Assembly: GCA_002269645.1 (NCBI GenBank)
Contig: NIVC01000103.1
Span: 741,393 to 805,392, forward strand
Origin: Macrostomum lignano
Lineage: Eukaryota
Length of the DNA stretch: 64,000 nucleotides
Reading direction: 5' to 3'
Below are positions 10,577 to 55,700 of the stretch, in pieces (the stretch's first letter is position 1; every line of letters starts with the position of its first letter). The position numbers and the translations under genes were made by a program. The notes beneath the pieces were generated by a model, which was not told the origin of the DNA, made no database searches, and saw nothing but the letters and a program-made list of their open reading frames with translations.

Positions 10577-15600
<5,024 letters not shown>

Positions 15601-30979: not shown

Positions 30980-33900
30980 TAGACTGTGTCAGTTCCAAGT
31001 CAGACTTTGCCAGTTCCCAGTGAGACTGTGTCAGTTCCCAAGTGAGACTGTGTCAGTTCCAATTTGAGACTGTGTCAGTTCCCAGTGAGACTGTGTCAGT
31101 TCCAAGTCAGACTTTGCCAGTTCCCAGTGAAACTGTGTCAGTTCCCAAGTGAGACTGTGTCAGTTCCAATTTGAGACTGTGTCAGTTCCCAGTGAGACTG
31201 TGTCAGTTCCAATTTGAGACTGTGTCAGTTCCCAGTGAGACTGTGTCAGTTCCAAGTGAGACTGTGTCAGTTCCAAGTGAGACTGTGTCAGTTCCAAGTG
31301 AGACTGTGTCAGTTCCAAGTCAGACTTTGCCAGTTCCAAGTGAAACTGTGTCAGTTCCAAGTGAGACTGTGTCAGTTCCAAGTCAGACTTTGCCAGTTCC
31401 AAGTGAAACTGTGTCAGTTCCAAGTGAGACTGTGTCAGTTCCAATTTGAGACTGTGTCAGTTCCAATTTGAGACTGTGTCAGTTCCCAGTGAGACTGTGT
31501 CAGTTCCCAGTGAGACTGTGTCAGTTCCCAGTGAGACTGTGTCAGTTCCCAGTGAGACTGTGTCAGTTCCAAGTGAGACTGTGTCAGTTCCAATTTGAGA
31601 CTGTGTCATTTCCCAGTGAGACTGTGTCAGTTCCCAAGTGAGACTGTGTCAGTTCCCAGTGAGACTGTGTCAGTTCCCAGTGAGACTGTGTCAGTTCCAA
31701 GTGAGACTGTGTCAGTTCCAATTTGAGACTGTGTCAGTTCCAAGTGAGACTGTGTCAGTTCCAATTTGAGACTGTGTCAGTTCCCAGTGAGACTGTGTCA
31801 GTTCCCAGTGAGACTGTGTCAGTTCCCAAGTGAGACTGTGTCAGTTCCTAGTGAGACTGTGTCAGTTCCCAAGTGAGACTGTGTCAGTTCCCAAGTGAGA
31901 CTGTGTCAGTTCCAAGTGAGACTGTGTCAGTTCCCAGTGAGACTGTGTCAGTTCCAAGTCAGACTTTGCCAGTTCCAAGTGAAACTGTGTCAGTTCCAAG
32001 TGAGACTGTGTCAGTTCCAATTTGAGACTGTGTCAGTTCCAATTTGAGACTGTGTCAGTTCCCAGTGAGACTGTGTCAGTTCCCAGTGAGACTGTGTCAG
32101 TTCCCAGTGAGACTGTGTCAGTTCCAAGTGAGACTGTGTCAGTTCCAATTTGAGACTGTGTCAGTTCCCAGTGAGACTGTGTCAGTTCCCAAGTGAGACT
32201 GTGTCAGTTCCCAGTGAGACTGTGTCAGTTCCCAAGTGAGACTGTGTCAGTTCCAAGTGAGACTGTGTCAGTTCCCAGTGAGACTGTGTCAGTTCCAAGT
32301 GAGACTGTGTCAGTTCCAAGCGAGACTGTGTCAGTTCCAAGCGAGACTGTGTCAGTTCCAAGCGAGACTGTGTCAGTCCCAAGCGAGACTGTGTCAGTCC
32401 CAAGCGAGACTGTGTCAGTTCTAATTCAGACTGTGTCAGTTCCAAGCGAGACTGTGTCAGTCCCAAGTCAGACTGTGTCATTCCCAAGCGAGACTGTGTC
32501 AGTCCCAAGTCAGACTGTGTCAGTCCCAAGTGAAACTGTGTCAGTTCCAAGTGAGACTGTGTCAGTTCCAATTTGAGACTGTGTCAGTTCCAATTTGAGA
32601 CTGTGTCAGTTCCCAGTGAGACTGTGTCAGTTCCCAGTGAGACTGTGTCAGTTCCCAGTGAGACTGTGTCAGTTCCCAGTGAGACTGTGTCAGTTCCAAG
32701 TGAGACTGTGTCAGTTCCAATTTGAGACTGTGTCAGTTCCCAGTGAGACTGGGTCAGTTCCCAGTGAGACTGTGTCAGTTCCCAAGTGAGACTGTGTCAG
32801 TTCCCAGTGAGACTGTGTCAGTTCCCAAGTGAGACTGTGTCAGTTCCAAGTGAGACTGTGTCAGTTCCCAGTGAGACTGTGTCAGTTCCAAGTGAGACTG
32901 TGTCAGTTCCAATTTGAGACTGTGTCAGTTCCAAGTGAGACTGTGACAGTCCCAAGCGAGACTGTGTCAGTCTTAAGTGAGACTGTGTCAGTCCCAAGTG
33001 AGACTGTGTCAGTCCCAATAAGACTGTGTCAGTTCCAAGCGAGACTGTGTCAGTCCCAAGTGAGACTGTGTCAGTCTTAAGTGAGACTGTGTCAGTCCCA
33101 AGTGAGACTGTGTCAGTTCCAAGCGAGACTGTGTCAGTTCCAAGTGAGACTGTGTCAGTTCCAAGTGAGACTGTGTCAGTTCCAAGTGAAACTGTGTCAG
33201 TCCCAAGTGAGACTGTGCCAGTTCTAATTCAGACTGTGTCAGTCCCAAGTCAGACTGTGTCAGTTCCAAGTGAGACTGTGTCAGTTCCAAGTGAGACTGT
33301 GTCAGTTCCAAGTGAGACTGTGTCAGTTCCAAGTGAGACTGTGTCAGTTCCAAGTGAGACTGTGTCAGTTCCAAGTGAGACTGTGTCAGTCTTAAGTGAA
33401 ACTGTGTCAGTTCCCAAGTGAGACTGTGTCAGTTCCAATTTGAGACTGTGTCAGTTCCCAAGTGAGACTGTGTCAGTCCCAAGCGAGACTGTGTCAGTCC
33501 CAAGAAGACTGTGTCAGTTCCAAGTGAGACTGTGTCAGTTCCAAGTAAGACTGTGTCAGTCCCAATAAGACTGTGTCAGTTCCAAGTGAAACTGTGTCAG
33601 TCCCAAGTGAGACTGTGTCAGTCCTAAGTCAGACTGTGTCAGTTCCAAGTGAGACTGTGTCAGTTCCAAGTGAGACTGTGTCAGTTCCAAGTGAGACTGT
33701 GTCAGTTCCCAAGTGAGACTGTGTCAGTTCCCAAGTGAGACTGTGTCAGTTCCAATTTGAGACTGTGTCAGTTCCCAAGTGAGACTGTGTCAGTCCCAAG
33801 CGAGACTGTGTCAGTCCCAAGAAGACTGTGTCAGTTCCAAGTGAGACTGTGTCAGTCCCAAGCGAGACTGTGTCAGTTCCAAGTGAGACTGTGTCAGTTC

Positions 33901-34558
33901 CAAGCGAGACTGTGTCAGTTCCAAGCGAGACTGTGTCAGTCCCAAGCGAGACTGTGTCAGTCCCAAGCGAGACTGTGTCAGTTCTAATTCAGACTGTGTC
34001 AGTTCCAAGCGAGACTGTGTCAGTCCCAAGTCAGACTGTGTCATTCCAAGCGAGACTGTGTCAGTCCCAAGTCAGACTGTGTCAGTCCCAAGCGAGACTG
34101 TGTCAGTCCCAAGTCAGACTGTGTCATTCCCAAGTGAGACTGTGTCAGTCTTAAGTGAGACTGTGTCAGTTCTAATTCAGACTGTGTCAGTCCTAAGTCA
34201 GACTGTGTCATTCCCAAGTGAGACTGTGTCAGTCTTAAGTGAAACTGTGTCAGTCCCAAGTGAGACTGTGTCAGTCCCAAGTGAGACTGTGTCAGTCCCA
34301 AGTCAGACTGTGTCAGTCCCAAGTGAGACTGTGTCAGTTCCAAGTGAGATTGTGTCAGTTCCAAGTGAGACTGTCAGTTCCAAGTGAGACTGTGTCAGTT
34401 CCAAGTGAGACTGTGTCAGTTCCAATAAGACTGTGTCAGTTCCAAGTGAGACTGTGTCAGTCCCAAGTGAAAATGTGTCAGTTCCAAGTGAGACTGTGTC
34501 AGTTCCAAATGAGACTGTGTCAGTCCCAAGTGAGACTGTGTCAGTCCCAAGTGAGACT
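30980..34558. repeat. 21-bp satellite (GAGACTGTGTCAGTTCCAAGT)n, left of LTR insertion
   Basis: ~170 tandem units. Confidence 0.97.
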
Positions 34559-35435
34559 TATAAGCTTCCTAGTTGGCCGCAAACTAAGAACCTTACATAT
34601 GATTAATAGTGACTCAAACGAGGTAGAATATGCTTGGATGTTATTTACCGATCAACCATATAATTATATTTACTACTGCATTTTCAACGTTTGTATTAAT
34701 AAGCAAATAAGCGAGCTACAAGCAGGGAGAATAAGTCTGAGACACTACGGTATAACTAAGCTACTCAAATACTCCTATTAATCTATTATATATATATATA
34801 AATTACGCCTATCTACCTGGTCTGAGACCGATACGCTAATATTCATAAATCTATAGTCATGTCAGTGCTCAGTCTTACCCTCCGGTCACAGGTGTCTGCA
34901 GAAGCGGTCGTCATGATTTGCAAACTATTAAGCAATCCAAAAGTTAATACAAGGCGTTTAAAAGAGAGTGAAAAGAGAGTGAGAAAAGGGTAAAGTTTTT
35001 AGCATTTAACCCCTCGCTTATTTATAGTAAATTTCCCCGATGAAGTCCCTGTGAAACTGTCTGCGTTATCATTTCCCACGTCTTCCAGCCACCGCGCAAT
35101 TCCGGCCGATTCTTACGGTTCCCCTTTCTCGTGCGATTCCTGAAATGCCTCTGTTAAAAAATGTAATTGAACCCCGCCCCACATAAAGGCATACAACCCC
35201 TCTAAAGTGGAAGCAGACTTTTACGGCGGCCTGCACTCGCCCTTTGCAATGCCGTCATCAAGCACTTGTGGCTTTTTGTAAGAGTGCAGCTGTCCACAAC
35301 TGCTACACTCCACCACGCTCTGATAACAATGCAATTCCCTAATTTCCTAAATCCTAAGTCATATTCCTAATAGTTCCTACGATAGTCCCTAAATAGTCCC
35401 TAAGGCCTACATGCATATGAAATTGAATCCTTATA
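34559..35435 (-). repeat. 3' LTR
   Basis: Termini TATAAG...CTTATA; near-identical to the other LTR. Confidence 0.95.
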
Positions 35436-35437
35436 TT

Positions 35438-35452
35438 ACTCCCCCTTTTTTC
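35438..35452 (-). promoter_or_regulatory. Polypurine tract
   Basis: Minus strand GAAAAAAGGGGGAG 3 nt before the 3' LTR. Confidence 0.85.
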
Positions 35453-35659
35453 AAATGTGGTCCCCACATTTGCATTTAGTAAAATATGGAGATGAAGAAA
35501 TCATTGAGACTAGTATGAAAGCAAATAGCTGTAAGTATGAGCGAATGATTTTAATCTCGTAAAGCTTTTATCATTCTGGATATAGCGATGTAGCTCGTTC
35601 AATCTCACCTCAAAACCATCTGCGATCTTCGATTTATGTTGTCCGACTCAACTTGAGCT

Positions 35660-36034
35660 TCAGTTGTCCTCTGAGCTGTCCTCTTCAGTAGTATTCGCAT
35701 TACCCTCGTTTCTTAGGAGAGAAAGTAGTTTGGTGCAGCAGATAACTATCAGCTCCCAAATAATGCGTCCCTCGCGATATTCGTCATCGTACATATCGTC
35801 AGCGAGATTGCGGAGCTCCGTCTTGTATACATCAATCGGCCGTGTCGGTGGCGGCTCTCTGAATTCTACTTCAGAAACTCCCGGTTCGTATAGTCTACGT
35901 GCTTCCGTTCGGATATCTTCCAAGATGGGTATTACTCTTTCCTTATAACCCGGCAGTAGGGGGGAGAACCATTGAAAGAAGTGGATCCTATGGTAGATCC
36001 ATGCTCGGCGCTCAAAGTCGTTCAGGATATTCAT
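35660..36034 (-). CDS. Small ORF2 of LTR element, unknown function, in frame with the polyprotein
   Basis: 124 aa from ATG; the 18 codons between it and the polyprotein TAA are open. Confidence 0.45.
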   Translation of the reverse strand: MNILNDFERRAWIYHRIHFFQWFSPLLPGYKERVIPILEDIRTEARRLYEPGVSEVEFREPPPTRPIDVYKTELRNLADDMYDDEYREGRIIWELIVICCTKLLSLLRNEGNANTTEEDSSEDN

Positions 36035-36088
36035 GGTTCTAGTTCTTGCGTGGACGCAAAGTGAATCTCTTACAAGCTGATTCCTCTG

Positions 36089-39000
36089 TTACTTCTGTCT
36101 GCTTGGATTCATTTCTTTGATGATCTGAACTTCGACCATATGCTGTTTTCCTCCTATCTCTAAGTGAATTGTACCTCTTCCTATGAACTGAAGCTGGGAA
36201 TTTCCCACTCCTACTGCAATTATATCACTCCTGTTCCACGTTATTTTTAATGCGTCGGCCAATCTTTTACTGATCACAGTCAGCGTCGCTCCTGTATCGA
36301 TCAAGGTATGTACCCCTCTTCGTCCTTGTGGTGTCACAACCGGTAACGTTATTATGGATTTCATAACACTCCCCAAGGTGAATATCGAATGCTGTTTCCT
36401 TATTTGTTTCTCACTAGGGGGTATCGGAATGGTTGTCTCTGCTTGTGGTGCTTGAACTCCAGTCAGATTAACAGTAACATAATTTTCTGTTGGCAAGTTC
36501 GGAACCACATCTGTGTGCTGCTGTATAGCCGCTTCTTGTTTCTTTGATAGTGCAATTCTTCCTGTCCTTTGCACATATAAGAATTTTATTATTCGCAGAA
36601 TTATATAGATCCACACAATTGCGCATGTTGTCGTAATAAACAGACTGTAGAAACTGATATGGAAACCAAAAGTCGCTCGAAAAAGCATTCCGAAAAGTCC
36701 GTTAGCTAGCTGCAGTGGCGAAAAATCTGCTAACCAACTCATATCAGTCCCATTTTCTGGTTCACCTACGACTCCAAATGTGTGTAAAAGTACGTTATTG
36801 TTCTCTACGAATAAATCCAACAAGTCAGCAAGGTGGATTGGCGTTCGAAGGTCACTTATCTGCACATCTGCGATAGGATGATACACTCCTGTCGTTGTCT
36901 TAATAGTTAAAGGCTGAAAGTCACTTCCGAAAGATAAGACATGCACTTCATTTTCCATCCGTGCCACTGTTCCGTTTTGGTCGACTTCGAATGGGTCACC
37001 TTCAATTGAGACGTAATATGGAATCACATTTTTACATGCTTCTTTGTGAACATCTGCTGTGATTATTTTTGTTTCCGTGTTCAAAAATGCCTTTATCGTT
37101 TCATTTTTCTCATTGAACTGGACTGGTGGTTGCGCATAACAAGCGTCGCGTCGTGCTTCCTGAGGCAAGAATGTTATGTTGAAAATATTCTTGCACGGGT
37201 ACACCACAACGAATTCTCGGGTCACTACTGCCTCAATTTCTTCTTTTCCAATTATTCTCCTCATCACCTTTGTCGGGCTATTAATTAATGACAATCGTAG
37301 ATTCTTCACTGTGGCCTTGAAATTCTGACAAGCAAGTTTTATTGTATTACGTTCCAATTTTCGTAATCTCTCCAATTCCTTAATCTCCACAGCTTCAAAT
37401 TCAGCGGCGATCATTGAAGCCGATTCTAGTTCGAACTCAAGACTTCTTTTCTTCCTTGCCTTTAGATCGGTCGACTCTAGTGAAGACATCTTTTTCCTTT
37501 TCAGTTTGCTTTTCATCAACTTCCTGAATAGCTTTGTCTTGCTGGAACTCAGTTTCTTGTGTGCTTGATGCGCAATTATTAGGCGTAGTCTCTCTGTATC
37601 TGACTCGTCTGATGCCAATTGGATGTAAACGCCTTGCTCAGCTCTAAATAAAGTTATGTTCACTTCACTGCAATTTAGTGTACGTTCGACAGGTCGTTTA
37701 GCGAACTGGAATGCCATCGTTTGATCATCCGACATGAGAAACGTTGAATGTAGAAATCCTTCCTTGGTTGCAAAGGGCAATAATTCACAACTCCGATTTT
37801 TCTCCACTTGCCAGACTAACGTGAATGCTCTTTCACCTTCGTAATACCAATAATGAACATCCGATTTTTGGGCTGATTCTATCTGCATCGATTCCCAAGG
37901 AGGGTGCTTATTCATGACTGCCATAGGCAAGGCCATCACTTTGTCAATAGGCATCCGCATCTCACACATTCCTGACCTGTAAGCGCATTCTTCGATCCGG
38001 AATTTCATGCTACTCATTGCTCCATTCCGTAAATAGAATTTTATTCCTGTCATCACGGAATCTACTGTGCCGACATTCGTCCCTACCGCTCCTGGAAAGC
38101 TTATCCATTTTATCTTTGGTGCAGAATCTGTCCTGTATAACGTAGATCCATCATTACTCCATACCTCGTGTAATTCTCCGATGCTTGATTTCCTTTCTTC
38201 ATGCCATCGCTTGCAGTTCTCACTTAAAACCTCATGGGGTGTAACCTTGAAGACAATGCTGTGGTGGATATTCATCACTGTTCCCCACCACTTTGCTTCG
38301 ACACGAATCTCTTCTCGATGACATACAACCATTTTCCCATCGAATGTTTGCGTATTCGGCTTAAATATCGTAAAGTTAATGTGCTCTGCACTATTCTGGT
38401 TCCTGTTTAATTCTGGACAGGTGATTTCTTCTGGAAATCGGAATACCTGCTGTCCGACCGATCGGTCACAGACTAGTCCGTAGGTCATTTGATTCGACGC
38501 AGAGCCTTGCAACTCGGTCTCGGCCCGAACTCCTCCTAGGCTTAAAAGCATGAAGACGAAAAGGAAAATTATCTTCCATGACCATCGCTCCGCTGTCCGA
38601 GGTTTCATTTCCATGACGTTAATTTCTGGGAACTCAAGAAGCTGAAGTTCCTCATTACCACCGGTCTGCTCATACTCATGCGCAGAATCTGTTCCTTCGA
38701 CTGCATTTTGCGCGTCAACCACATTCACTCCTGCTCCTCTTCCTCTTCCGACAGTTCCTCGGCCTCTATTGATTTGTCCTCTGCTTGAGTATCGTCCGCC
38801 TCGTCCACGATTTCCTCGACCATATCCTTGGTTGTTGGCAAAAGATCCTCTGTTCCAATATCCTCTTGGGTTTCCTACTTGGCCTCGATTTCCTCTTCCT
38901 CGATTCCACTGATTTTGAGGATTAAATCCTCGAGGCTGCCATCCTCTTGGGTTTTGCTGACCTCTATATTGGTTTTGCCAGTGGTTCTGCCATCCATTGT

Positions 39001-39955
39001 CTCTAGGATGGCTGTACGTCCATTCTCTCCGTTGAACTCCAGCATTGCCATCCATCTGCAAGGCCATTACCTCTAGTTTCTTATTGATGCTGTCGAGTTG
39101 AGCTTCTGTCTCCGTCCTAAGTGGCTCTACCGACTCGAAGTGGTTTGCTCGGCTTAGCAATTGCTGGGTAGTCTGGATATTTTCATCCAGTAGTTTGTTG
39201 CGGAGATAGATGCGCGAATTACTAATTGCATACCGCACGACCAACTTTTCGGCCTGTCTTCGCATTAATTCGCGATTCCCTTCCGCGCCTGGTTCAATTC
39301 CTTCTGCGTTCACCATTTTCTGAACAAGTTGACGAATATCGTTGTAAAAGTCCATGAATTTCTCGCCTTCCTTTTGCTTTCTAGCTGTTAACTGGGTCAT
39401 TGTGACAACGTCGTTAGGAGCGTAATTTCGCATTTCTTCCTTCAGTGCTTCAGCCATGTGCGCATAAGTAGCTTTCCTTTCATTCGGAATCGCTCTATAG
39501 ATCTCCATCACTTGTCGTTCAAGAAAGAATGGAAAAATTCTTAGTTTATTTGCAGCCGTTACATTGAAGACCTCAGACGCTGTATCAAAGTCGTCCAAAA
39601 ATTTGGCTACATCTCCAAAAAGTGCAAGTGGTTTGACCATCTTTTCCATTGCAGTGATCGTTGATCCGATTCCTGCTGCCATTTCGGCGTCGTCTCCTCC
39701 ACCTGCTCCTGCTTCTGGTTGTTCGTCCACTTCTGCTTCTTCTGTTTCTTCTGGTTCGGCTTCGTCTGTTTCGACTTCAACCTCTTCTTCTTCTTCTTTT
39801 TCTACCTCTATTTCTTCTGTTTCGACTTCGGCTTCGGATTCTCCTATTTCTTGATCAGCTCTTAGATTGCCTTGATTCTGATTTCTTCCTACTATGTCGT
39901 TAAATTCACTTGTGAAATCTCCAGAACCTGTTTCTGTCACTAATGTTTCCAGCAA
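36089..39955 (-). CDS. Gag - gB-like envelope glycoprotein - aspartic protease polyprotein
   Basis: Gag-like core (FLDDFD...LRIFPFFL...RKQKEGEKFMDFYNDIRQLV), RG-rich NC-like tract, internal signal WKIIFLFVFMLLSLGGVRA (~38580-38522), Cys-patterned glycosylated ectodomain with furin site RKKR (37446-37457), TM (~36665-36575), protease LIDTGA (D at 36296-36298). First in-frame ATG at 39682. Confidence 0.9.
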   Translation of the reverse strand: MLETLVTETGSGDFTSEFNDIVGRNQNQGNLRADQEIGESEAEVETEEIEVEKEEEEEVEVETDEAEPEETEEAEVDEQPEAGAGGGDDAEMAAGIGSTITAMEKMVKPLALFGDVAKFLDDFDTASEVFNVTAANKLRIFPFFLERQVMEIYRAIPNERKATYAHMAEALKEEMRNYAPNDVVTMTQLTARKQKEGEKFMDFYNDIRQLVQKMVNAEGIEPGAEGNRELMRRQAEKLVVRYAISNSRIYLRNKLLDENIQTTQQLLSRANHFESVEPLRTETEAQLDSINKKLEVMALQMDGNAGVQRREWTYSHPRDNGWQNHWQNQYRGQQNPRGWQPRGFNPQNQWNRGRGNRGQVGNPRGYWNRGSFANNQGYGRGNRGRGGRYSSRGQINRGRGTVGRGRGAGVNVVDAQNAVEGTDSAHEYEQTGGNEELQLLEFPEINVMEMKPRTAERWSWKIIFLFVFMLLSLGGVRAETELQGSASNQMTYGLVCDRSVGQQVFRFPEEITCPELNRNQNSAEHINFTIFKPNTQTFDGKMVVCHREEIRVEAKWWGTVMNIHHSIVFKVTPHEVLSENCKRWHEERKSSIGELHEVWSNDGSTLYRTDSAPKIKWISFPGAVGTNVGTVDSVMTGIKFYLRNGAMSSMKFRIEECAYRSGMCEMRMPIDKVMALPMAVMNKHPPWESMQIESAQKSDVHYWYYEGERAFTLVWQVEKNRSCELLPFATKEGFLHSTFLMSDDQTMAFQFAKRPVERTLNCSEVNITLFRAEQGVYIQLASDESDTERLRLIIAHQAHKKLSSSKTKLFRKLMKSKLKRKKMSSLESTDLKARKKRSLEFELESASMIAAEFEAVEIKELERLRKLERNTIKLACQNFKATVKNLRLSLINSPTKVMRRIIGKEEIEAVVTREFVVVYPCKNIFNITFLPQEARRDACYAQPPVQFNEKNETIKAFLNTETKIITADVHKEACKNVIPYYVSIEGDPFEVDQNGTVARMENEVHVLSFGSDFQPLTIKTTTGVYHPIADVQISDLRTPIHLADLLDLFVENNNVLLHTFGVVGEPENGTDMSWLADFSPLQLANGLFGMLFRATFGFHISFYSLFITTTCAIVWIYIILRIIKFLYVQRTGRIALSKKQEAAIQQHTDVVPNLPTENYVTVNLTGVQAPQAETTIPIPPSEKQIRKQHSIFTLGSVMKSIITLPVVTPQGRRGVHTLIDTGATLTVISKRLADALKITWNRSDIIAVGVGNSQLQFIGRGTIHLEIGGKQHMVEVQIIKEMNPSRQK

Positions 39956-40828
39956 TGAATTTCTAACACTTTCTGATGCGGCGGAGTCTTCTACCAGCGT
40001 GGAGTTTATCTCACTCTCTATTGCTTCTTCGTTTATATGATCTACTTCTGATATTTGATCAGAGCTCTTCGGGGACTTTTTCTTATTTCTTAACCAATAG
40101 CTTGCCAGGTTTTGTAATCAAAGTAGATATCGATATCTTATTTAGACAAATAATCTGTTGTTAAATTTGTGCTAAACACATATAGTCTTGAAATATAAAT
40201 TTAATAGACTGCCCTAATAATATTCCTTTTCTTTTGCTATTGTGGGACAAATATCTCATATATATATAACTCACAGCAACCTTAGGTCCTTTTGTGTGCA
40301 CGTCACTCGGTTCGGAAGTTTGAAGATTACTTGGAGCACTTTGACCGGCTATTCGGTAACGAATAATACCAGGGTGGCTAGTCCCAAGAACAGGTTGAAC
40401 AGGTAATATGTAGCCTAAAGAAAGAAAATGGTTGAATAGGTTAGTCTCGAGCTTTCCTGAGTCTTCCACGACCGAACCATGCAATGCGCTCACTAAAGGG
40501 GTGGATTTGGCTCGCGCGAAATATTGCCTTACCACCTAATTTGTGGTCACCTTGTGTGCCACTCTCTGAGGTACCTCTTTAATATAAAGTTTCTGTGGCC
40601 AAAATATTAAACAAATATTTTATTGACTGGCGCTGAAAATGTGACTTCAAAAGTCAACTGGCCACTGTCCCACTAAATTAATGACATGCATGTCCAAATT
40701 ATAAATAATTTAATAATTCAATAATAAACCTAGGTGCTGTGTCAGCTTTTGCTGAATTATGCGCCAGACATAATAATTGGGCAGCTATCAAGACTATCCT
40801 GGCAAAGTCCCTCTAAATTACCTTTTAG

Positions 40829-40839
40829 CGTGGTCGCCA
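40829..40839 (-). promoter_or_regulatory. Primer-binding site, tRNA-Arg-like
   Basis: TGGCGACCACG 2 nt inside the 5' LTR boundary; complementary to a tRNA 3' end CGUGGUCGCCA, matching tRNA-Arg(UCG) as I recall it. Confidence 0.75.
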
Positions 40840-41030
40840 AATATAAGCTTCCTAGTTGGCCGCAAACTAAGAACCTTACATATGATTAATAGTGACTCAA
40901 ACGAGGTAGAATATGCTTGGATGTTATTTACCGATCAACCATATAATTATATTTACTACTGCATTTTCAACGTTTGTATTAATAAGCAAATAAGCGAGCT
41001 ACAAGCAGGGAGAATAAGTCTGAGACACTA

Positions 41031-42340
41031 CGAGGGTCACTCAGAAAGTTCTTAGCCTGAACACGAAAACAGCAACAAATGAACTAAAAAACGACTACTA
41101 GTGCTCAAAATACTCTCCACCGGCATTGATACAGGCTTGCATCCTGTGAAACCAGCTGTCAAAGCACTGCCGCCAATCCTCATCCCGGAGCTCTTCGATG
41201 ATGTTTTTGAACTCATTCACAGCTTCTTCCGGTGAAGAAAAGACCTGACCCTTCAGAATCTCCTTGCACTTCGGAAACAGAAAAAAGTCGCACGGTGCCA
41301 GATCTGGACTATACGCAGGGTGAGTCATCAGCTGGACCCCACAGTCAGCCAGAAACTCAAGAGTTTGAGCCGCCGTGTGCTCGCTGGCGTTGTCGTGGTG
41401 CAGAAGCACCCCGCGCATTCCGCACCTTGGGCGCCTCTGGCTCACAGCAGAAAAGACTTTGGGCAGGCAAACCGTTGTGTACCAGTCAGCGGTGACTGTC
41501 TGGCGATCTTCAAGTGAAACGGAAGCCACATGCCCAGTGCGCATGAAGAAACAGGCCACCATCTGCTTGCCGACACTCCGGCTGCGTCGAAACTTGGTGG
41601 GGCTGTCCTCGTCTCCAAAGGTCCACATGGCTGACTGGCGCTTGCTTTCGGGGTCGTATTGATAAATCCAGGTCTCATCGCCCGTGAGAATGTCCCAGAT
41701 ACGCCGGCTGGTCCCAGATTCGAATTTCTGCAACATGAATCGGCACCAAGCCACCCTGGTGTCCTTCTGCACGTCCGACAGCTGATGGGGGATCCACCGG
41801 GAAGCCAGCTTCCGCACTCCAATGTGTTCGTGCAGAATGGCGTGCACACTACCCGATCCAATACCGATCTCCTGCTGGATCTGCTGGTAGGTCACTCGCC
41901 GGTCAGCGGCAATCATGCTGGACACAGCGCAGATATTTTCTGGAGTCACTGCGTCACAGGGTCTCCCGGATCGATGTTCATCTTCGAGGCTTTCTCGACC
42001 TCGGCCAAACTCAGCGAACCAGTTTTTGACGGTTGCGTATGAAGGACATACATGGGTAAAAACGTTCTGTAAAGTTTGATACGATTCGGTCGGCGACTTG
42101 CCTTGCTTGAAGTGCAAGTAAATCATTGCCCTGAAGTCGCGATTTTCCAGCTTCATTGTTGAATTGAAGAACTCAGGGGGTGAACTGACTTTAACTCGCT
42201 GCAGTGGACTCAAAAGTGGCTGCTTCTGTTTGAAATTTTTGTTGCAATACTTTTAAAAGTTGGTCTTTACCATAGACAAATTTCATGCTTCTACGTCTCG
42301 TGGATCCTACTCAGGCTAAAGACTTTCTGAGTGACCCTCG
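41031..42340 (-). mobile_element. Full-length mariner (DD34D) transposon
   Basis: 30-bp TIRs CGAGGGTCACTCAGAAAGT(TC/CT)TTAGCCTGA, TA TSD, 1310 bp. Confidence 0.97.
41098..42213 (-). CDS. Mariner transposase, intact
   Basis: WIPHQL, TGDETW, HHDNA, YSPDLAPCD; 34 residues between D2 and D3. Likely start at MKLENRDF. Confidence 0.97.
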   Translation of the reverse strand: MSPLQRVKVSSPPEFFNSTMKLENRDFRAMIYLHFKQGKSPTESYQTLQNVFTHVCPSYATVKNWFAEFGRGRESLEDEHRSGRPCDAVTPENICAVSSMIAADRRVTYQQIQQEIGIGSGSVHAILHEHIGVRKLASRWIPHQLSDVQKDTRVAWCRFMLQKFESGTSRRIWDILTGDETWIYQYDPESKRQSAMWTFGDEDSPTKFRRSRSVGKQMVACFFMRTGHVASVSLEDRQTVTADWYTTVCLPKVFSAVSQRRPRCGMRGVLLHHDNASEHTAAQTLEFLADCGVQLMTHPAYSPDLAPCDFFLFPKCKEILKGQVFSSPEEAVNEFKNIIEELRDEDWRQCFDSWFHRMQACINAGGEYFEH

Positions 42341-43030
42341 TACGGTATAACTAAGCTACTCAAATACTCCTATTAATCTATTATATATATATATAAATTA
42401 CGCCTATCTACCTGGTCTGAGACCGATACGCTAATATTCATAAATCTATAGTCATGTCAGTGCTCAGTCTTACCCTCCGGTCACAGGTGTCTGCAGAAGC
42501 GGTCGTCGTGATTTGCAAACTATTAAGCAATCCAAAAGTTAATACAAGGCGTTTAAAAGAGAGTGAAAAGAGAGTGAGAAAAGGGTAAAGTTTTTAGCAT
42601 TTAACCCCTCGCTTATTTATAGTAAATTTCCCCGATGAAGTCCCTGTGAAACTGTCTGCGTTATCATTTCCCACGTCTTCCAGCCACCGCGCAATTCCGG
42701 CCGATTCTCACGGTTCCCCTTTCTCGTGCGATTCCTGAAATGCCTCTGTTAAAAAATGTAATTGAACCCCGCCCCACATAAAGGCATACAACCCCTCTAA
42801 AGTGGAAGCAGACTTTTACGGCGGCCTGCACTCGCCCTTTGCAATGCCGTCATCAAGCACTTGTGGCTTTTTGTAAGAGTGCAGCTGTCCACAACTGCTA
42901 CACCCCACCACGCTCTGATAACAATGCAATTCCCTAATTTCCTAAATCCTAAGTCATATTCCTAATAGTTCCTACGATAGTCCCTAAATAGTCCCTAAGG
43001 CCTACATGCATATGAAATTGAATCCTTATA

Positions 43031-43955
43031 AGACTGTGTCAGTCCCAAGTGAGACTGTGTCAGTCCCAATAAGACTGTGTCAGTTCCAAGTGAGACTGTG
43101 TCAGTCCCAAGTGAGACTGTGTCAGTCCCAAGTGAGACTGTGTCAGTCCCAAGTGAGACTGTGTCAGTCCCAAGTGAGACTGTGTCAGTCCCCAGTGAGA
43201 CTGTGTCAGTTCCCAAGTGAGATTGTGTCAGTCCCAAGTGAAACTGTGTCAGTCCCCAGTGAGACTGTGTCAGTCCCAAGTGAGACTGTGTCAGTCCCAA
43301 GTCAGACTGTGTCAGTCCCAAGTCAGACTGTGTCAGTCCCAATCGAGACTGTGTCAGTCCCAAGTGAGACTGTGTCAGTCCCAAGTGAAACTGTGTCAGT
43401 CCCAAGTGAGACTGTGTCAGTCCCAAGAAGACTGTGTCAGTTCCAAGTGAGACTGTGTCAGTCCCAAGTGAGACTGTGTCAGTCCCAAGAAGACTGTGTC
43501 AGTTCCAAGTGAGACTGTGTCAGTCCCAATAAGACTGTGTCAGTCCCAAGTGAGACTGTGTCAGTCCCAATAAGACTGTGTCAGTTCCAAGTGAGACTGT
43601 GTCAGTTCCAAGTGAGACTGTGTCAGTCCCAAGTGAGACTGTGTCAGTCCCCAGTGAGACTGTGTCAGTTCCCAAGTGAGACTGTGTCAGTCCCAAGTGA
43701 AACTGTGTCAGTCCCCAGTGAGACTGTGTCAGTCCCCAGTGAGACTGTGTCAGTTCCCAAGTGAGACTGTGTCAGTCCCAAGTGAAACTGTGTCAGTCCC
43801 AAGTGAGACTGTGTCAGTCCCGAGTGAGACTGTGTCAGTCCCAAGTGAAACTGTGTCAGTGTTAAGTGAGACTGTGTCAGTCCCAAGTGAGACTGTGTCA
43901 GTCCCCAGTGAGACTGTGTCAGTTCCCAAGTGAGACTGTGTCAGTTCCCAAGTGA
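43031..43955. repeat. 21-bp satellite, right of LTR insertion
   Basis: Continuation of the 30980-34558 array. Confidence 0.97.
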
Positions 43956-44845
43956 GCAACTGTCGGCGATGAGAGTGCGAGACCGTCATAAACCTCTACG
44001 GGCTCCTATTTTATTATTGAACTCTAACTTCAGCACGAAATATTGAAAAATTTTATGAGCCTGACTTCCTGGCTGAAAGGTGGCACAGGTGCCTCTGCAG
44101 GTGTGACGGATATCCTGAGATTTGCGGGCGGGCCGCAGAAAGTGCAATTACGAATAGGCCCAGGTGCCGTAAGTGTGTGAGCGCAATTCAGAAGCGCGCA
44201 GTCACCAATGCCACCGCTTCATATCCGATGCTATTGAAGTAGGCAGTCCCTTCGACAAAAGGTTATGTTTAAGACTTTGCAATATAGGTTGGGGAGGGGG
44301 GATGGCAGGCAACAAACTTGCATTGCTTTTTTCGCTTGGGTTAGAAATATTGGGGCCGCCATTTTGTTGCGGAAGAACAGAACCGGTCGCGTGTAGCATT
44401 CAGCCTTTTTTATCTGGCGTTTCGCCTCATCTTGTGCGAGGAAACGAAATAAGAGTCTCTTCTGGGTGAAGTAGCAGTCCCCAAGTAGATATGGAAATTT
44501 AAGGCCGATTTTTTGGGAGGAAGCACGCGAGGAGAGGAAATATTGCTTCTGCAGTGCTGCTGGAGAGCTGGAATTTGTTTGTATTTTTTTGAGGGGGGGG
44601 GCGATGGAAAATGCCAGCTGCGAAACCGACACATTGACAGCTGCATACTTATAATTTACAAAATGAAGCATCTTGGAGCAAATGGCAGCTTCGCTCAAAA
44701 CGGACTCTCAGAATGCGAACTGATCTACACCATCATCAACACCAGAATAATATTTTAATGCAGTCTCCTAATTTATTAGATTAGTTTAATCAATTATAAT
44801 TAATTGCAAGCTGCTTTCCAGGTGTTCTAAAGTAGTATAATCCTG

Positions 44846-46717: not shown

Positions 46718-49700
46718 TCAGTCAATAGCCCTCCAGCCGCCATTCTGTTTGAGCACATTCCTGAGCAGCCTCTCGCCGTACACCTGCTGTCTCAGCCTGT
46801 TATTCCTCAGTCGAGCTGCCCGACGTTCGGCCTCCTCGCGCGCAACTGTCTCTGGCCAGCGTTTCACGCCGCCGCCATTGACAATCAGCACAGGCTTGCG
46901 CTTCTGCTGTTTCCGCTGCTGCTGCCCAGCAGGAGCGGCAGAATTCCTGGTTGGCGACCGCACCTTGAGCCGATATGCCCAGGTCTTGGTCGGGGGCAGC
47001 TTCGCCGAAGTCGGTCGCTGCTGCTCAGCGGCCGGCGCAGCGGCCAGCCTTGGAGAGGCGAACAGCTGGAGCCGATCGCGTTCCAGGTCCGCCACCACCT
47101 GCCGCTCCTCGGCAGCCAGCCGGACTCGCCGCTGTCTGGCCCGGCTTCGACTAACAAAATCCGACATTCGCTGGTTGAAGGCGTCCTGCAGTTGTTTGGT
47201 CGGTTGGCTGGTTGACTGCTCCTCCTGCTGCTCATCTGGACGCTCCTCATCTTCCAGTTCAATAATCCTCCGTCGGGATTCTTGAGGCTCAGGCGGAGTC
47301 GGAGTCGATTGTGATGTCGCTTTCTGCCGCTCAACAGGCAGGAACCAGGCCAGGCCTCGGGGAGCGATTTTGGCCGACCGATTGGCTCTGAGAAAAATCT
47401 GATCGATCTCGTCCGGCCGCTCATGCTGCCTTCGCCGGCCTACGCTGCTCATGCTGTGCGGCAGAGTGGGCTCATCCAGAGTCTGAGTAGCATCGGTCCG
47501 ATCTGTCGGCAGCGGAGTCACCGTGCCGCAGGACTCATCGTCCTCGTCTTCCAGATCTTCGCTGTCCTCCGCTGCCGCCGAGGCGCTGATTGTTGTCGGG
47601 TCAGCATTGGAGTTGAAGTCATGCCGGCCTCGGGTTGTTATCGTGACGGTTTTGCGCGGCTGCTGCTGCTGCTGCTGCTGACCGCCGCCGGCGAGAATCG
47701 GCTTCGGAGCTGCACCGACGCGACGTCGAACGACGCTGCCGTCGCCGACACCCGATCCGGAGCCGGAACCGGAGCCGCGCTCACACAGCAGGCGCTGTAG
47801 AATTCGAATCCGCTCCCGGCGCCTCCGCTCCGCCGCGCGCGCCTCCATCAGCTTCTCTTTCTGGCGAAGCAGCAGCGCCTGCAGGCGGAGCGTCTGCGCG
47901 TCCAGGTCGCTCACGTCCGATGTCGGCGCGTCGAAATCGGCATCATCGACATCCACATCGTCGATTTCGATCTCGTCATCCTTGTTCAAGTCGTCTCGGC
48001 GAGGCTGGCGACGATCGGCCGATGAGGAGTTGGAAGTCAGCGAGGTCGGGTCGACCCGGCCGAGAACAGCTGGCAGCGGGTCCGCCAGCAGCTGGCGAAG
48101 GCCGCGGGGTCGTCTGGCTCGCTGGAATTTCTCCCAGGCCTGCGGGCGCGAGATGTTTGACATGGAGAGTGAGGAAATACTGCAGCCAGCTCACACGGGA
48201 TGTACAGGGGCCCTGACTTTCTATGGTGGCACCCAGGCCAAGAGGCGTCTCAATGACTCTAGACGACTCTAGGAACAACGAGATGTCGCGGTACAAGTTG
48301 CTAAAGAGTCGCCTGGGTCAGTTTGACGCTTCTATAATGACTTTAGAAGCACTCGCGACTCAAACAGACTCATTACAGTTGTTTGAGTCGTTATTAATTA
48401 ATAATAATAATTGATTACACCTGCCCTAATGGCCAGATGTGCAACCGACAGCTCAGCCGCAGCTATTGCGCGGCGCATCTGAAGGCTGAGTACGAAGGAC
48501 TTGGAGAGGGGGTCGCCACACACAGCCTCAATTACCCCAGCTAATGCTGGCACCCATTTTACAGCTGGGTGAACTGAAGCAATGCAGAGTTTGAGTCTCT
48601 TGCTCAAGGACACAAATTGTTCCGAGTGAGTCAAGAATCGAACCCCCGACCTTCAAGTCGTGAGTCCGACGCTCGGACCACTAGGCTTTTGAGTCGTTAA
48701 AAAAGTCACAAGAGTCGCCCCCAGAGTCCTTAGAGTCACTAGTGAGCTGTTCGCAATGACTCTATAGCGATTCTTGCAACTGAGCTCCCACATCTGACTC
48801 ACCTGCTGCAGCTGGGCATCAGCAGACGAGCCGCCAGCAGTAGCCGCCGCCCGCGGAGTGTCGTCCAAGGAGGTGACGTCATCCTCCGTAGCTCCGCCGC
48901 CGCCTCCGCCTCCATTGCGGCCAACCCGAGACGAGCCGAAAGCTTCGCGAGGAAACCTGGGCGGCACGGCATCATTTGAGCCCGGGTGAGTGGACTCTCG
49001 GGTCTCTTCTTCTTCATCATCATCATCATCTTCAGGTACTGCAGGCTCAGCCTCCTCCTGCCGGCGCTCTCCAGCTTTATCATTTTCCTCGTCATAATAG
49101 TAGAATCCCTCAGGAGCGGTGGCTGAGCGCTGAACTCTGCCACTGCCATTTAGTCGCTGACGCAAGCCGCGATCTGCAGCCTCCGCCTCATCTAGCAGAC
49201 GCTGATACTGGGCGGTGCCCTGAGTAGCGTCACCAGACTGATGAAGCTGGTACTGCCGCCGGGCCTGGGGCCGATAATAGCGAGCATTTTCGGGATCTTC
49301 GGGATCCGGGCTGCTCAGAAATGTCGCCTCGTCGCCTCGGTAATAGCCTCTATGATGAAGCTGAGGCTGCGAATGATGCTGCTGCTGCTGTTGATGTTGA
49401 GGAGGCTGGGCAGCTGGAGGCTCAGATTGATGATGCGTCTCGTAGTAACGCTGCCGAGTTGATTCGTCAGCTACAGTGCCCCCACCGCCTCCGCCTCCAT
49501 TTCCGCCATCTCCATCCGCCCCAATATCCGCCCCGTAGTCCCATTTCAGCCTGACTGGCGAGCTGCCGCTGCCTCCGCTGCCGCCGCCGCCATTGAGAAA
49601 GCGCCGCTCGGCCAGTCGGCTTTGAATCTCGTCCAAGTCGCGTCGCAATGATTCGTAGTCGAATTCTGGCAGATCCGCAGCTGCGGCAGCTGGCGGCGGG

Positions 49701-52746: not shown

Positions 52747-55700
52747 TCAGTCATCTCTAACATAGAGCAGTATGTAAGGAGTCTTGTAGTGACCACCGCC
52801 ACTGCAGCCCCATTCACCAAGACTGGTCTTTGTCACACAATCATCATTAGCGTGGATCCAGCAGTCTTGAGCAGTTGTAGTAGCAGTAGCAGCACTTTCT
52901 CGGTTGCTATGCCGACAAACGGCAGTGTAGTGACCGCTGTGCAGGGACATTCCGTGATGCACCACGAACGCCTCCAGGCGATACGGCACCTGCTGGATGC
53001 TTGGTGATGGCGAAGCCTCATCCGCAGTCGGCTGCTCCAATGGTACATGGATCCTGGGCTCCAGCCTGACAGTGGACTGGGTGTCCTTGGAGGCTACACG
53101 AGCAGCGAAGTCGAAGTGGAACAGCTGCAGCACCAGCAGGAGACAGTTGGGCAGGCTCTGCAGACTCAGCTGCTTCTCAGCTTCAACCTGCGGTGTTGGA
53201 TTTATTGCTTCAGGTGATAAAATCCAAGCTTTAGGTGATAGGGAATCCAAGCTTCAGGTGATGGGGAATCCAACCTCTGAGGATGGGGAATCCAAGCTTC
53301 AGGTGATGGGGATTCCAACCTCTGAGGATGGGGAATCCAAGCTTCAGGTGATGGGGAATCCAACCTCTGAGGATGGGGAATCCAAGCTTCAGGTGATAAA
53401 ATCCAAGCTTCAGGTGATGGGGAATCCAAGCTTCAGGTTATGGGGAATCCAAGCTTCAGGTGATGGGGAATCCAAGCTTCAGGTTATGGGGAACCCAAGC
53501 TTCAGGTGATGGGGAATCCAAGCTTCAGGTGATGGGGAATCCAACCCCTGAGGATGGGAAATCCTAGCTTCAGGTGATAAAATTCAAGCTTCAGGTGATG
53601 GGGAATCCAAGCTTCAGGTGATGGGGAATCCAAGCTTCAGGTGATGGGGAATCCAAGCTTCAGGTGATGGGGAATCCAAGCTTCAGGTTATGGGGAACCC
53701 AAGCTTCAGGTGATGGGGAATCCAAGCTTCAGGTGATGGGGAATCCAACCTCTGAGGATGGGAAATCCAAGCTTCAGGTGATAAAATCCAAGCTTCAGGT
53801 GATGGGGAATCCGACCTCTGAGGATGGGGAATCCAAGCTTCAGGTGATAAAATCCAAGCTTCAGGTGATGGGGAATCCAACCTCTGAGGATGGGAAATCC
53901 AAGCTTCAGGTGATAAAATCCAAGCTTCAGGTGATAAAATCCAAGCTTCAGGTGATGGGGAATCCAACCTCTGAGGATGGGGAATCCAACCTCTGAGGAT
54001 GGGGAATCCAAGCTTCAGGTGATAAAATCCAAGTTTCAGGTGATGGGGAATCCAACCTCTGAGGATGGGGAATCCAAGCTTCAGGTGATGGGGAATCCAA
54101 CCTCTGAGGATGGGGAATCCAACCTCTGAGGATGGGGAATCCAAGCTTCAGGTGATAAAATCCAAGTTTCAGGTGATGGGGAATCCAACCTCTGAGGATG
54201 GGGAATCCAAGCTTCAGGTGATAAAATCCAAGCTTCAGGTGATGGGGAATCTAAGCTTCAGGTGATGGGGAATCTAAGCTTCAGGTGATGGGGAATCTAA
54301 GCTTCAGGTGATGGGGAATCCAACCTCTGAGGATGGGGAATCCAACCTCTGATGAGGATGGGGAATCCAACTTCTGATGATGGGGAATCCAACTTCTGAT
54401 GATGGGGAATCCAACTTAATGATGATGGGGAATCCAACCTCTGATGAGGATGGGAATCTAATCTCTGAGGATGGGGAATCCAACCTTTGATGAGGAGGAT
54501 GGGGAGTCCAGCCTCTGATGAGGATGGGGAATCCAACCTCTGATGAGGAGATGGAATCCAACCTTTGATGAGGATGGGGAATCCAACCTCTGATGAGGAG
54601 GATGGGGAATCCAACCTTTGATGAGGAGGATGGGGAGTCCAGCCTCTGATGAGGATGGGGAATCCAATCTCTGATGAGGATTGGGAATCCAGCCTCTGAT
54701 GAGGATGGGGAATCCAATCTGATGAGGATGGGAATCTAATCTCTGAGGATGGGAAATCCAACGTCTGATGAGGATGGGAAATCCAACGTCTGATGAGGAT
54801 GGGGAATCCAACCTCTGATAAGGAGGATGGGGAATCCAACCCCTGATGAGGATGGGAATCTAATCTCTGAGGATGGGAAATCCAACGTCTGATGAGGATG
54901 GGGAATCCAACCTCTGATGAGGAGGATGGGGAATCCAGCCTCTGATGAGGATGGGGAATCCAACCCCTGATGAGGATGGGGAATCCAACCTCTGATGAGG
55001 AGGATGGGGAATCCAGCCTCTGATGAGGATGGGGAATCCAACCCCTGATGAGGATGGGGAATCCAACCTCTGATGAGGAGGATGGGGAATCCAACCTCTG
55101 ATGAGGAGGATGAGGAATCCAACCTCTGATGAGGATAAGAAATTCCATCCCCTCTAAGGATGGGAAATCAGCACAGTAAAACAGTCACCTTATCATTGCA
55201 CTCAGCGCACAGCAGCTTGTCGTCTCCATCAAGCATCTCGGGCTGCAGATAGTCAGCCAGCATCTGGGACACGCTGTTCTCCAAATGCTTGCGCAACGCC
55301 AAATGCAGAGTGACAAATGGGGCTGTGGTTCGCACCGAGTGACCGGCAGCTTTACATCGCAAATGCACGCCCAGACGGCCGCTGAAACAACGGGCAACAA
55401 ACCGCTTGTATTCGTCCAGCTGTGGCCCAATCGATTTCTCCTCTTCTATCAGGCTGTCAATCACGTGTAGAAGATATTCGGCGGAGTCCTGCTGACTGCC
55501 GTGGCTCATGTACACCGGTCGGGAGCGGAGCAGGAAGGCGTGAGGATTCAAGGCGGGGGCCACGGAGTCAAGAGATGGAGACATGCGACGGAGCAGATTG
55601 ACCAGGTGCTCGCTGACCTGAGGGGAGAATGTGGATTGAGAAAATTTTCAATGATTAGGTGGAATTAACTTTAAGTAATCACGTGAGTCGTGACTATAAT

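What the first reader, a model, noticed from the sequence alone, without database searches (positions are those of the whole stretch)
35660..36400. No RT/RNaseH/integrase; protease cut short and a second ORF behind a single in-frame TAA
The protease stops at VQIIKEMNPSRQK* before the expected ILGxD motif. Only ~650 bp separate the stop from the 3' LTR, and none of it encodes pol. The frame reopens immediately (TAA CAG AGG..., 18 sense codons, then ATG) into a 124-aa ORF. Two readings fit. It may be a deletion derivative fusing PR to the tail of pol or an accessory ORF. Or it is a dedicated non-autonomous particle/envelope-supplying partner of a helper element, with possible read-through. Near-identical LTRs, an intact PBS/PPT and a clean TSD suggest this structure was mobilised recently, unless the deletion happened after insertion.
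Basis: partly seen in the sequence, partly recalled or inferred. Interest (0 to 1): 0.7.

Follow-up and report, generated by a model that had tools for sequence, protein, structure and literature searches.

The report
Envelope retrotransposon missing its polymerase
This is a young copy of a known kind of envelope-carrying retrotransposon that has lost the genes for copying itself, and the small gene behind its broken protease is most likely an ordinary separate extra gene, not a read-through product.

Summary
A 7.16-kb LTR element (minus strand, 34559-43030, not counting a mariner inserted in its 5' LTR) carries one 1342-codon ORF: gag-like region, gB-type env, then a retropepsin that stops before its last ~15 profile positions. 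No RT, RNase H or integrase remains; ORF2 (124 aa) follows. The order matches published GAG-ENV-POL Ty3/gypsy elements of nematodes, bryozoans and flatworms, whose internal regions are 7.5-12.9 kb against 5.4 kb here.

Best reading: an internal deletion joins the protease, out of frame, to the last ~24 codons of pol. These read on in the -1 frame to a TAG 4 nt before ORF2's ATG. ORF2 looks like a real gene of the parent, with no homologue found.

Read-through is not supported. An open 54-nt spacer arises in 35% of shuffles, no RNA structure follows the UAA, and reading through does not extend any protease profile.

No second copy or parent was available, so private deletion, shared non-autonomous family and retro-copy of a spliced Gag/Env mRNA remain unseparated. 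The last is the novel possibility.

The parts
42342..43030 (-). 5' LTR, first 689 bp; starts TATAAG, not TG
   Evidence: 99.6% to the 3' LTR
41030..42341 (-). mariner transposon in the 5' LTR only (TA duplication, terminal inverted repeats, uninterrupted 352-aa transposase ORF): a later insertion
40842..41029 (-). 5' LTR, last 188 bp; ends CTTATA
   Evidence: identical to the 3' LTR
40829..40839 (-). primer-binding site for tRNA-Arg (UCG/UCU type); 11 of 12 nt match
   Evidence: against the tRNA end listed in PMC13524379 supplement 1
39683..40117 (-). acidic N-terminal 145 codons of ORF1; no in-frame ATG, but in-frame coding signal
38732..39682 (-). gag-like region from the first Met (residue 146): helical part, then a Gly/Arg/Asn/Gln-rich RGG tract; assigned by position and pattern only
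   Evidence: no profile or fold match
36587..38584 (-). gB-type (class III) envelope: internal signal segment 512-530, Cys-rich ectodomain, one RxKR furin-type site at 888, membrane anchor 1159-1177
   Evidence: Pfam PF24664 E 2.2e-10; herpesvirus gB matches E 0.03-0.06 at both ends; hydropathy
36116..36316 (-). retropepsin with DTG at 36298; homology ends near residue 1334, before the C-terminal motif and strand
36092..36125 (-). inferred junction zone (cannot be pinned without the parent)
   Evidence: end of profile match; local phase shift; candidate AG positions
36089..36091 (-). TAA ending ORF1; the only TAA/TAG/TGA among 1343 codons, so a true stop
36039..36110 (-). -1 frame peptide ESKQTEVTEESACKRFTLRPRKN and TAG: the inferred last codons of the lost pol
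   Evidence: assignment to pol is inference
35660..36034 (-). ORF2, 124 aa, ATG in ACCATGA context 4 nt after that TAG; predicted helical; one moderately hydrophobic Cys-Cys segment (89-107); no homologue found
35439..35452 (-). polypurine tract
34559..35435 (-). 3' LTR, 877 bp; TATA-like box at LTR position 410
34554..34558 (-). 5-bp target-site duplication (other copy 43031-43035) inside a 21-bp minisatellite that flanks both ends

Best explanation
This is an internally deleted copy of a Ty3/gypsy-type LTR element of the GAG-ENV-POL kind, whose parent most likely had one continuous gag-env-pro-pol frame followed by a small accessory gene. A deletion of roughly 2-4.5 kb (about 3.5 kb if the flatworm example is the guide) removed the protease end, RT, RNase H and integrase. 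It joined the protease out of frame to the last ~24 codons of pol, so ORF1 runs a few foreign codons and meets a TAA. ORF2 is the parent's own downstream gene, started at its own ATG, probably from a subgenomic message; it shares ORF1's frame by a one-in-three accident. How it works now (inferred): the polyprotein would put Gag in the cytosol, thread Env into the ER through the internal signal, and leave a truncated protease on Env's cytosolic tail. Retropepsins need the missing C-terminal part to dimerise (established knowledge, recalled), so it is inactive. The copy cannot replicate alone; with PBS, PPT and LTRs its RNA could at most be copied by a full-length relative. Shown: anatomy, truncation, absence of pol, ORF2 coding signal. 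Inferred: the parent, the identity of the -1 tail, and the deletion mechanism and date.
For: (1) Domain order gag-like, gB env, PR in one frame. PMC13524379 reports GAG-ENV-POL order with gB-type env in Nematoda, Bryozoa and Platyhelminthes. (2) Size deficit: internal region 5406 bp against 7451-12886 bp, median 9914, in 17 of 45 nematode and flatworm rows that give LTR coordinates (bryozoan rows not read). The Macrostomum element has 864-bp LTRs and an 8864-bp interior. (3) The one Atlas hit is a 52-member cluster carrying RVT_1, Asp_protease_2 and Monjiviricetes_fusion, each in 35% of members; score 0.83, a lead only. (4) PR homology ends abruptly at the same residue with or without reading through. 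(5) The -1 frame gives an acidic tract ending in FTLRPR and a stop 4 nt before ORF2's ATG; that motif arose in 106 of 20000 shuffles, and the -1 frame scores best over 36112-36042 at all three Markov orders. (6) ORF2 is real by length (10 of 5000 shuffles) and phase (own frame best at all three orders). (7) Partial copies and an env-keeping, pol-lacking family (TelKA2n) are known in rotifers (PMC5408684).
Against: No parent or sister copy was found: three word-index protein searches, one profile-library search, two exact look-ups (6 sequences each) and one prokaryote-genome scan were blank, so the junction is not shown. That gypsy pol often ends in a YxLRPR-like tail is recalled; two literature searches did not confirm it for retrotransposons, only for foamy-virus Gag. 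The motif was chosen after seeing the sequence, and a rival loose motif in the ORF1 frame is as rare (123 of 20000). The phase signal is weak: over the 47 nt after the TAA alone, the ORF1 frame is slightly better at two of three orders, and the method picks the true frame in only 36-43 of 49 windows of this size. Gag identity is unconfirmed. Both breakpoints fall tidily near domain ends, which a random deletion need not do.
Confidence: 0.68

Rival explanations
1. The copy is a reverse-transcribed spliced mRNA. A single-frame gag-env-pro-pol element needs excess structural protein; a splice from a donor late in the protease to an acceptor just upstream of ORF2 would remove pol and yield exactly Gag-Env-dead PR. 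That message keeps both LTR ends, PBS and PPT, and was occasionally packaged and integrated.
For: Drosophila copia removes 2950 nt, virtually all of pol, by splicing to make a Gag message (PMC3735527); EVADE does similarly (PMC8892269). ORF3s are typically expressed from spliced messages (PMC5408684), so an acceptor 60-90 nt before ORF2's ATG would be expected (inference). pol is lost completely, with breakpoints near domain ends. An exon-end-like AAG sits at 36115, where PR homology ends.
Against: AG is common here (12 in 81 nt), so the match carries little weight. The cited precedents are Ty1/copia, and BARE's spliced RNA is not the replicated pool. DNA-level deletions are far more common (general knowledge).
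Confidence: 0.13
2. It belongs to an established non-autonomous family that keeps gag and env under selection, supplies particle and envelope protein and borrows RT and integrase from a helper. Compatible with either origin of the junction.
For: All cis signals are intact, LTRs differ at 3 of 877 sites, ORF1 and ORF2 are uninterrupted. Precedents: TelKA2n and plant TR-GAG elements with only GAG or GAG+AP (PMC6022998). The eLife survey removed elements with truncated POL, so such a family would have been missed.
Against: Only one copy was seen. ORF integrity is expected by chance at this age (about 6 substitutions, P(no stop) 0.73). The mariner in the 5' LTR shows post-insertion change at this locus. 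A helper with the same layout makes its own Gag and Env, so no need for a supplier is evident (inference).
Confidence: 0.15
3. Programmed read-through of the TAA fuses ORF2 to Gag-Env-PR, or the TAA is a recent point change in a formerly continuous PR-ORF2 frame.
For: One stop, 18 open codons, same frame. A loose echo of the missing protease motif lies after the stop (123 of 20000 shuffles), and the ORF1 frame scores slightly better after the TAA at two of three orders. The base after the stop is C.
Against: The open spacer is a 29-35% chance event and the shared frame one in three. With X at the stop, none of four protease profiles extends and scores fall; the echo lacks the invariant residue and is out of register. 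No stable RNA follows the stop (z -0.21, -0.15, -0.82). UAA is the least leaky stop and the plant-virus CARYYA context is not met (recalled). ORF2 has its own well-placed ATG.
Confidence: 0.05
4. ORF2 is a decayed piece of the integrase core, or the missing pol is an assembly collapse in a repeat-rich region.
For: By eye ORF2 has an SPxxP...GxxER pattern loosely like integrase. The element sits in a 4.5-kb minisatellite, and the window is full of tandem arrays.
Against: No integrase match in Pfam (whole and four sub-fragments, E up to 10), NCBIfam, PDB or 1.84 billion representatives. The junction lies in unique sequence between two LTRs with a matching TSD.
Confidence: 0.06

Closest known systems
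GAG-ENV-POL Ty3/gypsy elements with HSV/gB-type env (Chary and Hayashi, PMC13524379), e.g. Platyhelminthes Mlig_errantivirus_2, Nematoda c2 and Bryozoa C2b groups
   Same: Gene order gag-env-protease; gB-type env whose first domain resembles the nematode c2 and bryozoan C2b rows by eye; LTR length close to Mlig_2 (877 vs 864 bp).
   Different: No RT, RNase H or integrase; interior 2.0-7.5 kb shorter; tRNA-Arg PBS, unlike Mlig_2's. That survey kept only elements with full RT and integrase.
Nematode endogenous retroviruses of Sacco et al. 2022 (paper not held; title seen in a reference list; content recalled)
   Same: Recalled as one continuous gag-env-pro-pol ORF with a glycoprotein from RNA viruses, some with an extra small hypothetical ORF: the layout inferred for this parent.
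   Different: Those are intact and reported from nematodes; homology of their small ORF to ORF2 could not be tested.
TelKA2n of bdelloid rotifers (PMC5408684)
   Same: Non-autonomous, keeps env, lacks most of pol.
   Different: F-type env placed after pol, gag truncated, and described as a family; here gag-env is uninterrupted and only one copy is known.
Plant TR-GAG elements (as defined in PMC6022998)
   Same: LTR element with only gag or gag plus protease.
   Different: Plant elements without a fusion glycoprotein; copy number here unknown.
Spliced Gag messages of copia, BARE1 and EVADE (PMC3735527, PMC8892269)
   Same: Single-ORF elements that drop pol from a message to overproduce structural protein.
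   Different: Ty1/copia without env; RNA isoforms, not shown here to be the source of the junction.

Membership tests
GAG-ENV-POL gB-type Ty3/gypsy element | Paired LTRs, tRNA PBS, PPT, short TSD | tested here: met
GAG-ENV-POL gB-type Ty3/gypsy element | HSV/gB-type env upstream of the protease | tested here: met
   PF24664 E 2.2e-10 above cut-off; weak gB matches at both ends
GAG-ENV-POL gB-type Ty3/gypsy element | Recognisable Gag | tested here: inconclusive
   no profile hit; single-sequence model pLDDT 46; no fold match
GAG-ENV-POL gB-type Ty3/gypsy element | Full RT and integrase classed as Ty3/gypsy | tested here: not met
   absent; so it is filed as a derivative, not an intact member, and the superfamily is inferred from gene order and protease profile
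BEL/Pao with gB-type env | env downstream of pol; BEL/Pao-type protease and Cys-His gag (recalled) | tested here: not met
   env precedes PR; no Cys in residues 1-549; PR matches PF13975/PF13650, no BEL/Pao model
Non-autonomous LTR family (TelKA2n, TR-GAG type) | Cis signals kept, RT and integrase lacking | tested here: met
Non-autonomous LTR family (TelKA2n, TR-GAG type) | Several independent insertions sharing the junction, plus a helper | not testable with these tools
   no host genome; no second copy in the window
Stop-codon read-through elements | Single in-frame stop between two coding regions | tested here: met
   but chance level 29-35% for the spacer
Stop-codon read-through elements | Stimulatory RNA structure or leaky context after the stop | tested here: not met
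   z -0.15 to -0.82 (pseudoknots not modelled); UAA, context compared from recall
Stop-codon read-through elements | Read-through completes a needed domain | tested here: not met
   four protease profiles do not extend
Spliced structural-protein message (copia type) | Missing segment bounded by GT...AG in the full-length element | not testable with these tools
   no parent sequence
sORF2/FAST-like small fusogen (PMC11952523) | N-terminal myristoylation motif MGxxxS/T | tested here: not met
   ORF2 starts MNILND
sORF2/FAST-like small fusogen (PMC11952523) | One transmembrane helix | tested here: inconclusive
   best 19-residue hydropathy 1.66 at 89-107, near the C-terminus
Troyka (PMC12440569) | CG...CG ends and 3-bp TSD | tested here: not met
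   TA...TA ends, 5-bp TSD

The most novel reading that the evidence does not exclude
The junction is a splice junction, and this copy is a genomic print of the message by which single-frame gag-env-pro-pol elements overproduce Gag and Env. Splicing out pol from inside the protease would set the structural-to-enzyme ratio and silence the protease on Env's tail. If such copies also multiplied, they would form a pol-less, envelope-keeping family that arose by splicing and that surveys requiring RT would miss.
Probability: 0.13. Interest if true: 0.62.

Novelty: new member of a known kind. Interest (0 to 1): 0.3.

Why it matters
As a lone deletion it matters little: defective LTR copies are common and the parent layout is published. 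Two things keep some value. First, it points to a family of GAG-ENV-POL elements with no close relative in the protein collections searched, with TA...TA ends that TG...CA-based annotation would skip (such a filter was used for Macrostomum) and an uncharacterised accessory gene. Second, how a single gag-env-pro-pol frame makes more Gag and Env than Pol was not addressed in the passages I read (0 occurrences of 'frameshift' or 'readthrough' in the main text of PMC13524379). One alignment of this copy to a full-length relative would test the splicing answer directly.

Tried and rejected
Homologue searches, all blank: env+PR region against longer and near-length proteins, gag region, ORF2 against 1.84 billion representatives, Atlas features for ORF2, exact look-ups of 6 + 6 sequences, GTDB contigs (258 pattern hits, none confirmed). 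Proteins shorter than 738 aa were not searched with ORF1, so separate gag or env relatives could be missed. ORF2: no Pfam, NCBIfam or meaningful PDB match; single-sequence model pLDDT 57, four helices; no Foldseek match at E 0.001 in BFVD; best wide-search Z 8.4 among generic helical bundles, uninformative. HHpred was not available. Gag fold: pLDDT 46, no match. The env fold was not predicted. The -1 peptide has no PDB or Pfam match. No Rfam family in the element. TAA as a sense codon: rejected, 68 Gln all CAA/CAG and one TAA. A -1 frameshift: the only slippery heptamer of ORF1 lies in the protease flap (36206) and opens the -1 frame for 55 codons, but about 4.5 are expected per ORF, site plus open frame arose in 158 of 3000 resamplings, and no structure follows (z -0.88, -0.45); rejected. 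Literature: no paper in the library on a pol-less derivative of GAG-ENV-POL elements turned up in searches (listings only); Sacco 2022 was not held. The viral and metagenome contig collections stayed unchecked, and no eukaryotic genome collection was available. Figures of PMC13524379 and its GitHub sequences could not be seen; they may show ORF continuity and pol ends of relatives.

Full report
Observation. The finding is accurate. On the minus strand a 1342-codon frame (40117-36089) ends in VQIIKEMNPSRQK and TAA; 18 sense codons follow, then an ATG at 36034 opens a 124-aa ORF; 653 nt separate the stop from the 3' LTR. Four Pfam retropepsin models end 13-20 positions short of their ends, and no RT, RNase H or integrase domain or motif was found in the element.

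The element. It spans 43030-34559. The LTRs are 877 bp and differ at 3 sites, all transitions. They end TATAAG...CTTATA rather than TG...CA. A tRNA-Arg PBS matches 11 of 12 nt of the tRNA end listed in PMC13524379 supplement 1; a PPT precedes the 3' LTR; a 5-bp duplication breaks the phase of a 21-bp minisatellite. A mariner with an uninterrupted transposase ORF sits in the 5' LTR only, so it arrived after integration. Without it the element is 7160 bp, with 5406 bp between the LTRs. No second copy lies in the window.

ORF1. After 145 acidic codons without an in-frame ATG come a helical region and an RGG tract, taken as gag by position and pattern; no profile or fold confirmed this. Then follow a signal-like segment (512-530), a Cys-rich ectodomain with one furin-type site, an anchor (1159-1177) and the protease. 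The ectodomain matches PF24664 at E 2.2e-10 and, weakly, herpesvirus gB at both ends.

What the parent was. PMC13524379 (seen: abstract, passages, section 5 part 1 of 2, sections 14 and 22, rows of supplements 1, 2 and 4, single rows of 3, 5 and 6; no figures) reports that elements of Nematoda, Bryozoa and Platyhelminthes carry only gB-type env, in the order GAG-ENV-POL. By eye the first env domain here resembles its nematode c2 and bryozoan C2b rows. Of 45 nematode and flatworm rows, 17 give LTR coordinates; their interiors are 7451-12886 bp, median 9914. The Macrostomum one is 8864 bp, 3.46 kb more than here, about the size of RT-RNase H-integrase (general knowledge). The single Atlas hit is a cluster carrying RT, protease and this fusion family, each in 35% of 52 members; at score 0.83 it is a lead only. 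Sacco et al. 2022 is recalled to describe a continuous gag-env-pro-pol ORF with small extra ORFs; it was not held. The host looks like a flatworm such as Macrostomum (GC-rich exons, many minisatellites; compare), but this is unproven.

The junction. In the -1 frame the DNA after the break reads ESKQTEVTEESACKRFTLRPRKN and stops 4 nt before ORF2's ATG. That is the shape I recall for gypsy pol tails: disordered, ending in a basic aromatic-x-LRPR motif. The library confirmed such a motif only for foamy-virus Gag, where it binds nucleosomes (PMC12125541, passages; searches). It occurs in 106 of 20000 shuffles, but it was chosen after the fact, and a loose echo of the protease motif in the ORF1 frame is as rare (123 of 20000). 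A codon-phase model favours the -1 frame over 36112-36042 at all three orders, partly because of the TAA itself; after the TAA alone it is undecided, and at this length it is right in 36-43 of 49 test windows. So the tail assignment is plausible, not shown. Parsimony favours it: one deletion explains the missing pol, the abrupt end of PR, the stop and the adjacent ORF.

Read-through. The open spacer is common by chance (1774 of 5000 shuffles; 675 of 2344 off-frame windows). With X at the stop no protease profile extends and scores drop. The RNA after the stop folds no better than shuffles (z -0.21, -0.15, -0.82; pseudoknots not modelled). TAA is a true stop in this element. A slippery heptamer in the protease flap was tested and is within chance.

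ORF2. It is probably a real gene: 10 of 5000 shuffles give such an ORF, its own frame wins at all three orders, and its ATG context is strong. No homologue or informative fold was found. It lacks the myristoylation motif of sORF2/FAST proteins (PMC11952523, passages). My best guess is a small helical, possibly membrane-associated accessory protein; one Cys-Cys hydrophobic segment is the only hint. Extra ORFs behind pol are common and usually made from spliced messages (PMC5408684, passages).

Timing. LTR identity dates the insertion only. At this divergence about 6 substitutions are expected in ORF1, with a 0.73 chance of no stop, so intact gag-env shows no selection after pol loss. The mariner proves the locus changed after insertion. 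Deletion before or after integration cannot be told from one copy.

Rivals. A spliced-message origin has precedent: copia splices out 2950 nt of pol (PMC3735527, passages) and EVADE makes a short Gag message (PMC8892269, passages). The tidy breakpoints fit it, but AG is frequent at the junction (12 in 81 nt). A non-autonomous family has precedent in TelKA2n and TR-GAG (PMC6022998, passages), and the eLife survey would have dropped it. Neither could be tested. Troyka was excluded by its ends and TSD (PMC12440569, first of five parts).

Verdict. A real feature: a pol-less derivative of a known kind of envelope-bearing retrotransposon, with a genuine but unexplained accessory ORF and a coincidental in-frame stop. 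Interest 0.3; the splice reading (probability about 0.13) would deserve about 0.6.

Noticed in passing
window 39683-40117 (-): The first 145 codons of ORF1 have no in-frame ATG yet show strong in-frame coding signal. A CTG in good context at 40108, a donor-like site at 40533 and an acceptor-like site at 40415 suggest a non-AUG or spliced start.
   Followed up: partly
window 43030, 40842, 35435, 34559: LTR ends are TATAAG...CTTATA, a perfect 6-bp inverted repeat with TA...TA instead of TG...CA; tools that require TG...CA would miss the family.
   Followed up: partly
window 41030-42341 (-): Mariner with an uninterrupted 352-aa transposase ORF and near-perfect terminal repeats, inserted at a TA in the 5' LTR, 188 bp before the LTR end.
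   Followed up: yes
window 36206 (-): The only in-frame slippery heptamer of ORF1 lies in the protease flap and opens the -1 frame to the TAG at 36041; within chance. ORF1 has 1 such site where about 4.5 are expected.
   Followed up: yes
window about 37830-37960 (-): By eye env has an insertion of about 40 residues in its first domain relative to nematode and bryozoan rows; the flatworm alignment in the paper's supplement shows a 39-column gap at about that place.
   Followed up: no
window 35436-35560 (-): A small hairpin lies just before the polypurine tract; the region folds slightly better than shuffles (z -1.74, 7 of 200).
   Followed up: no
window 13454-14821 (-): piggyBac-like transposase ORF (DDE_Tnp_1_7, E 4.7e-56) between inverted repeats near 12800-15090.
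   Followed up: no
window 52747-56285 (-) and 46718-48190 (-): Host exons: ubiquitin C-terminal hydrolase pieces separated by minisatellite arrays and an ORF with an ALMS motif.
   Followed up: no
whole window: About two dozen distinct minisatellite arrays of 4-53 bp units; the element sits inside a 21-bp array spanning 30981-34558 and 43031-43956.
   Followed up: partly
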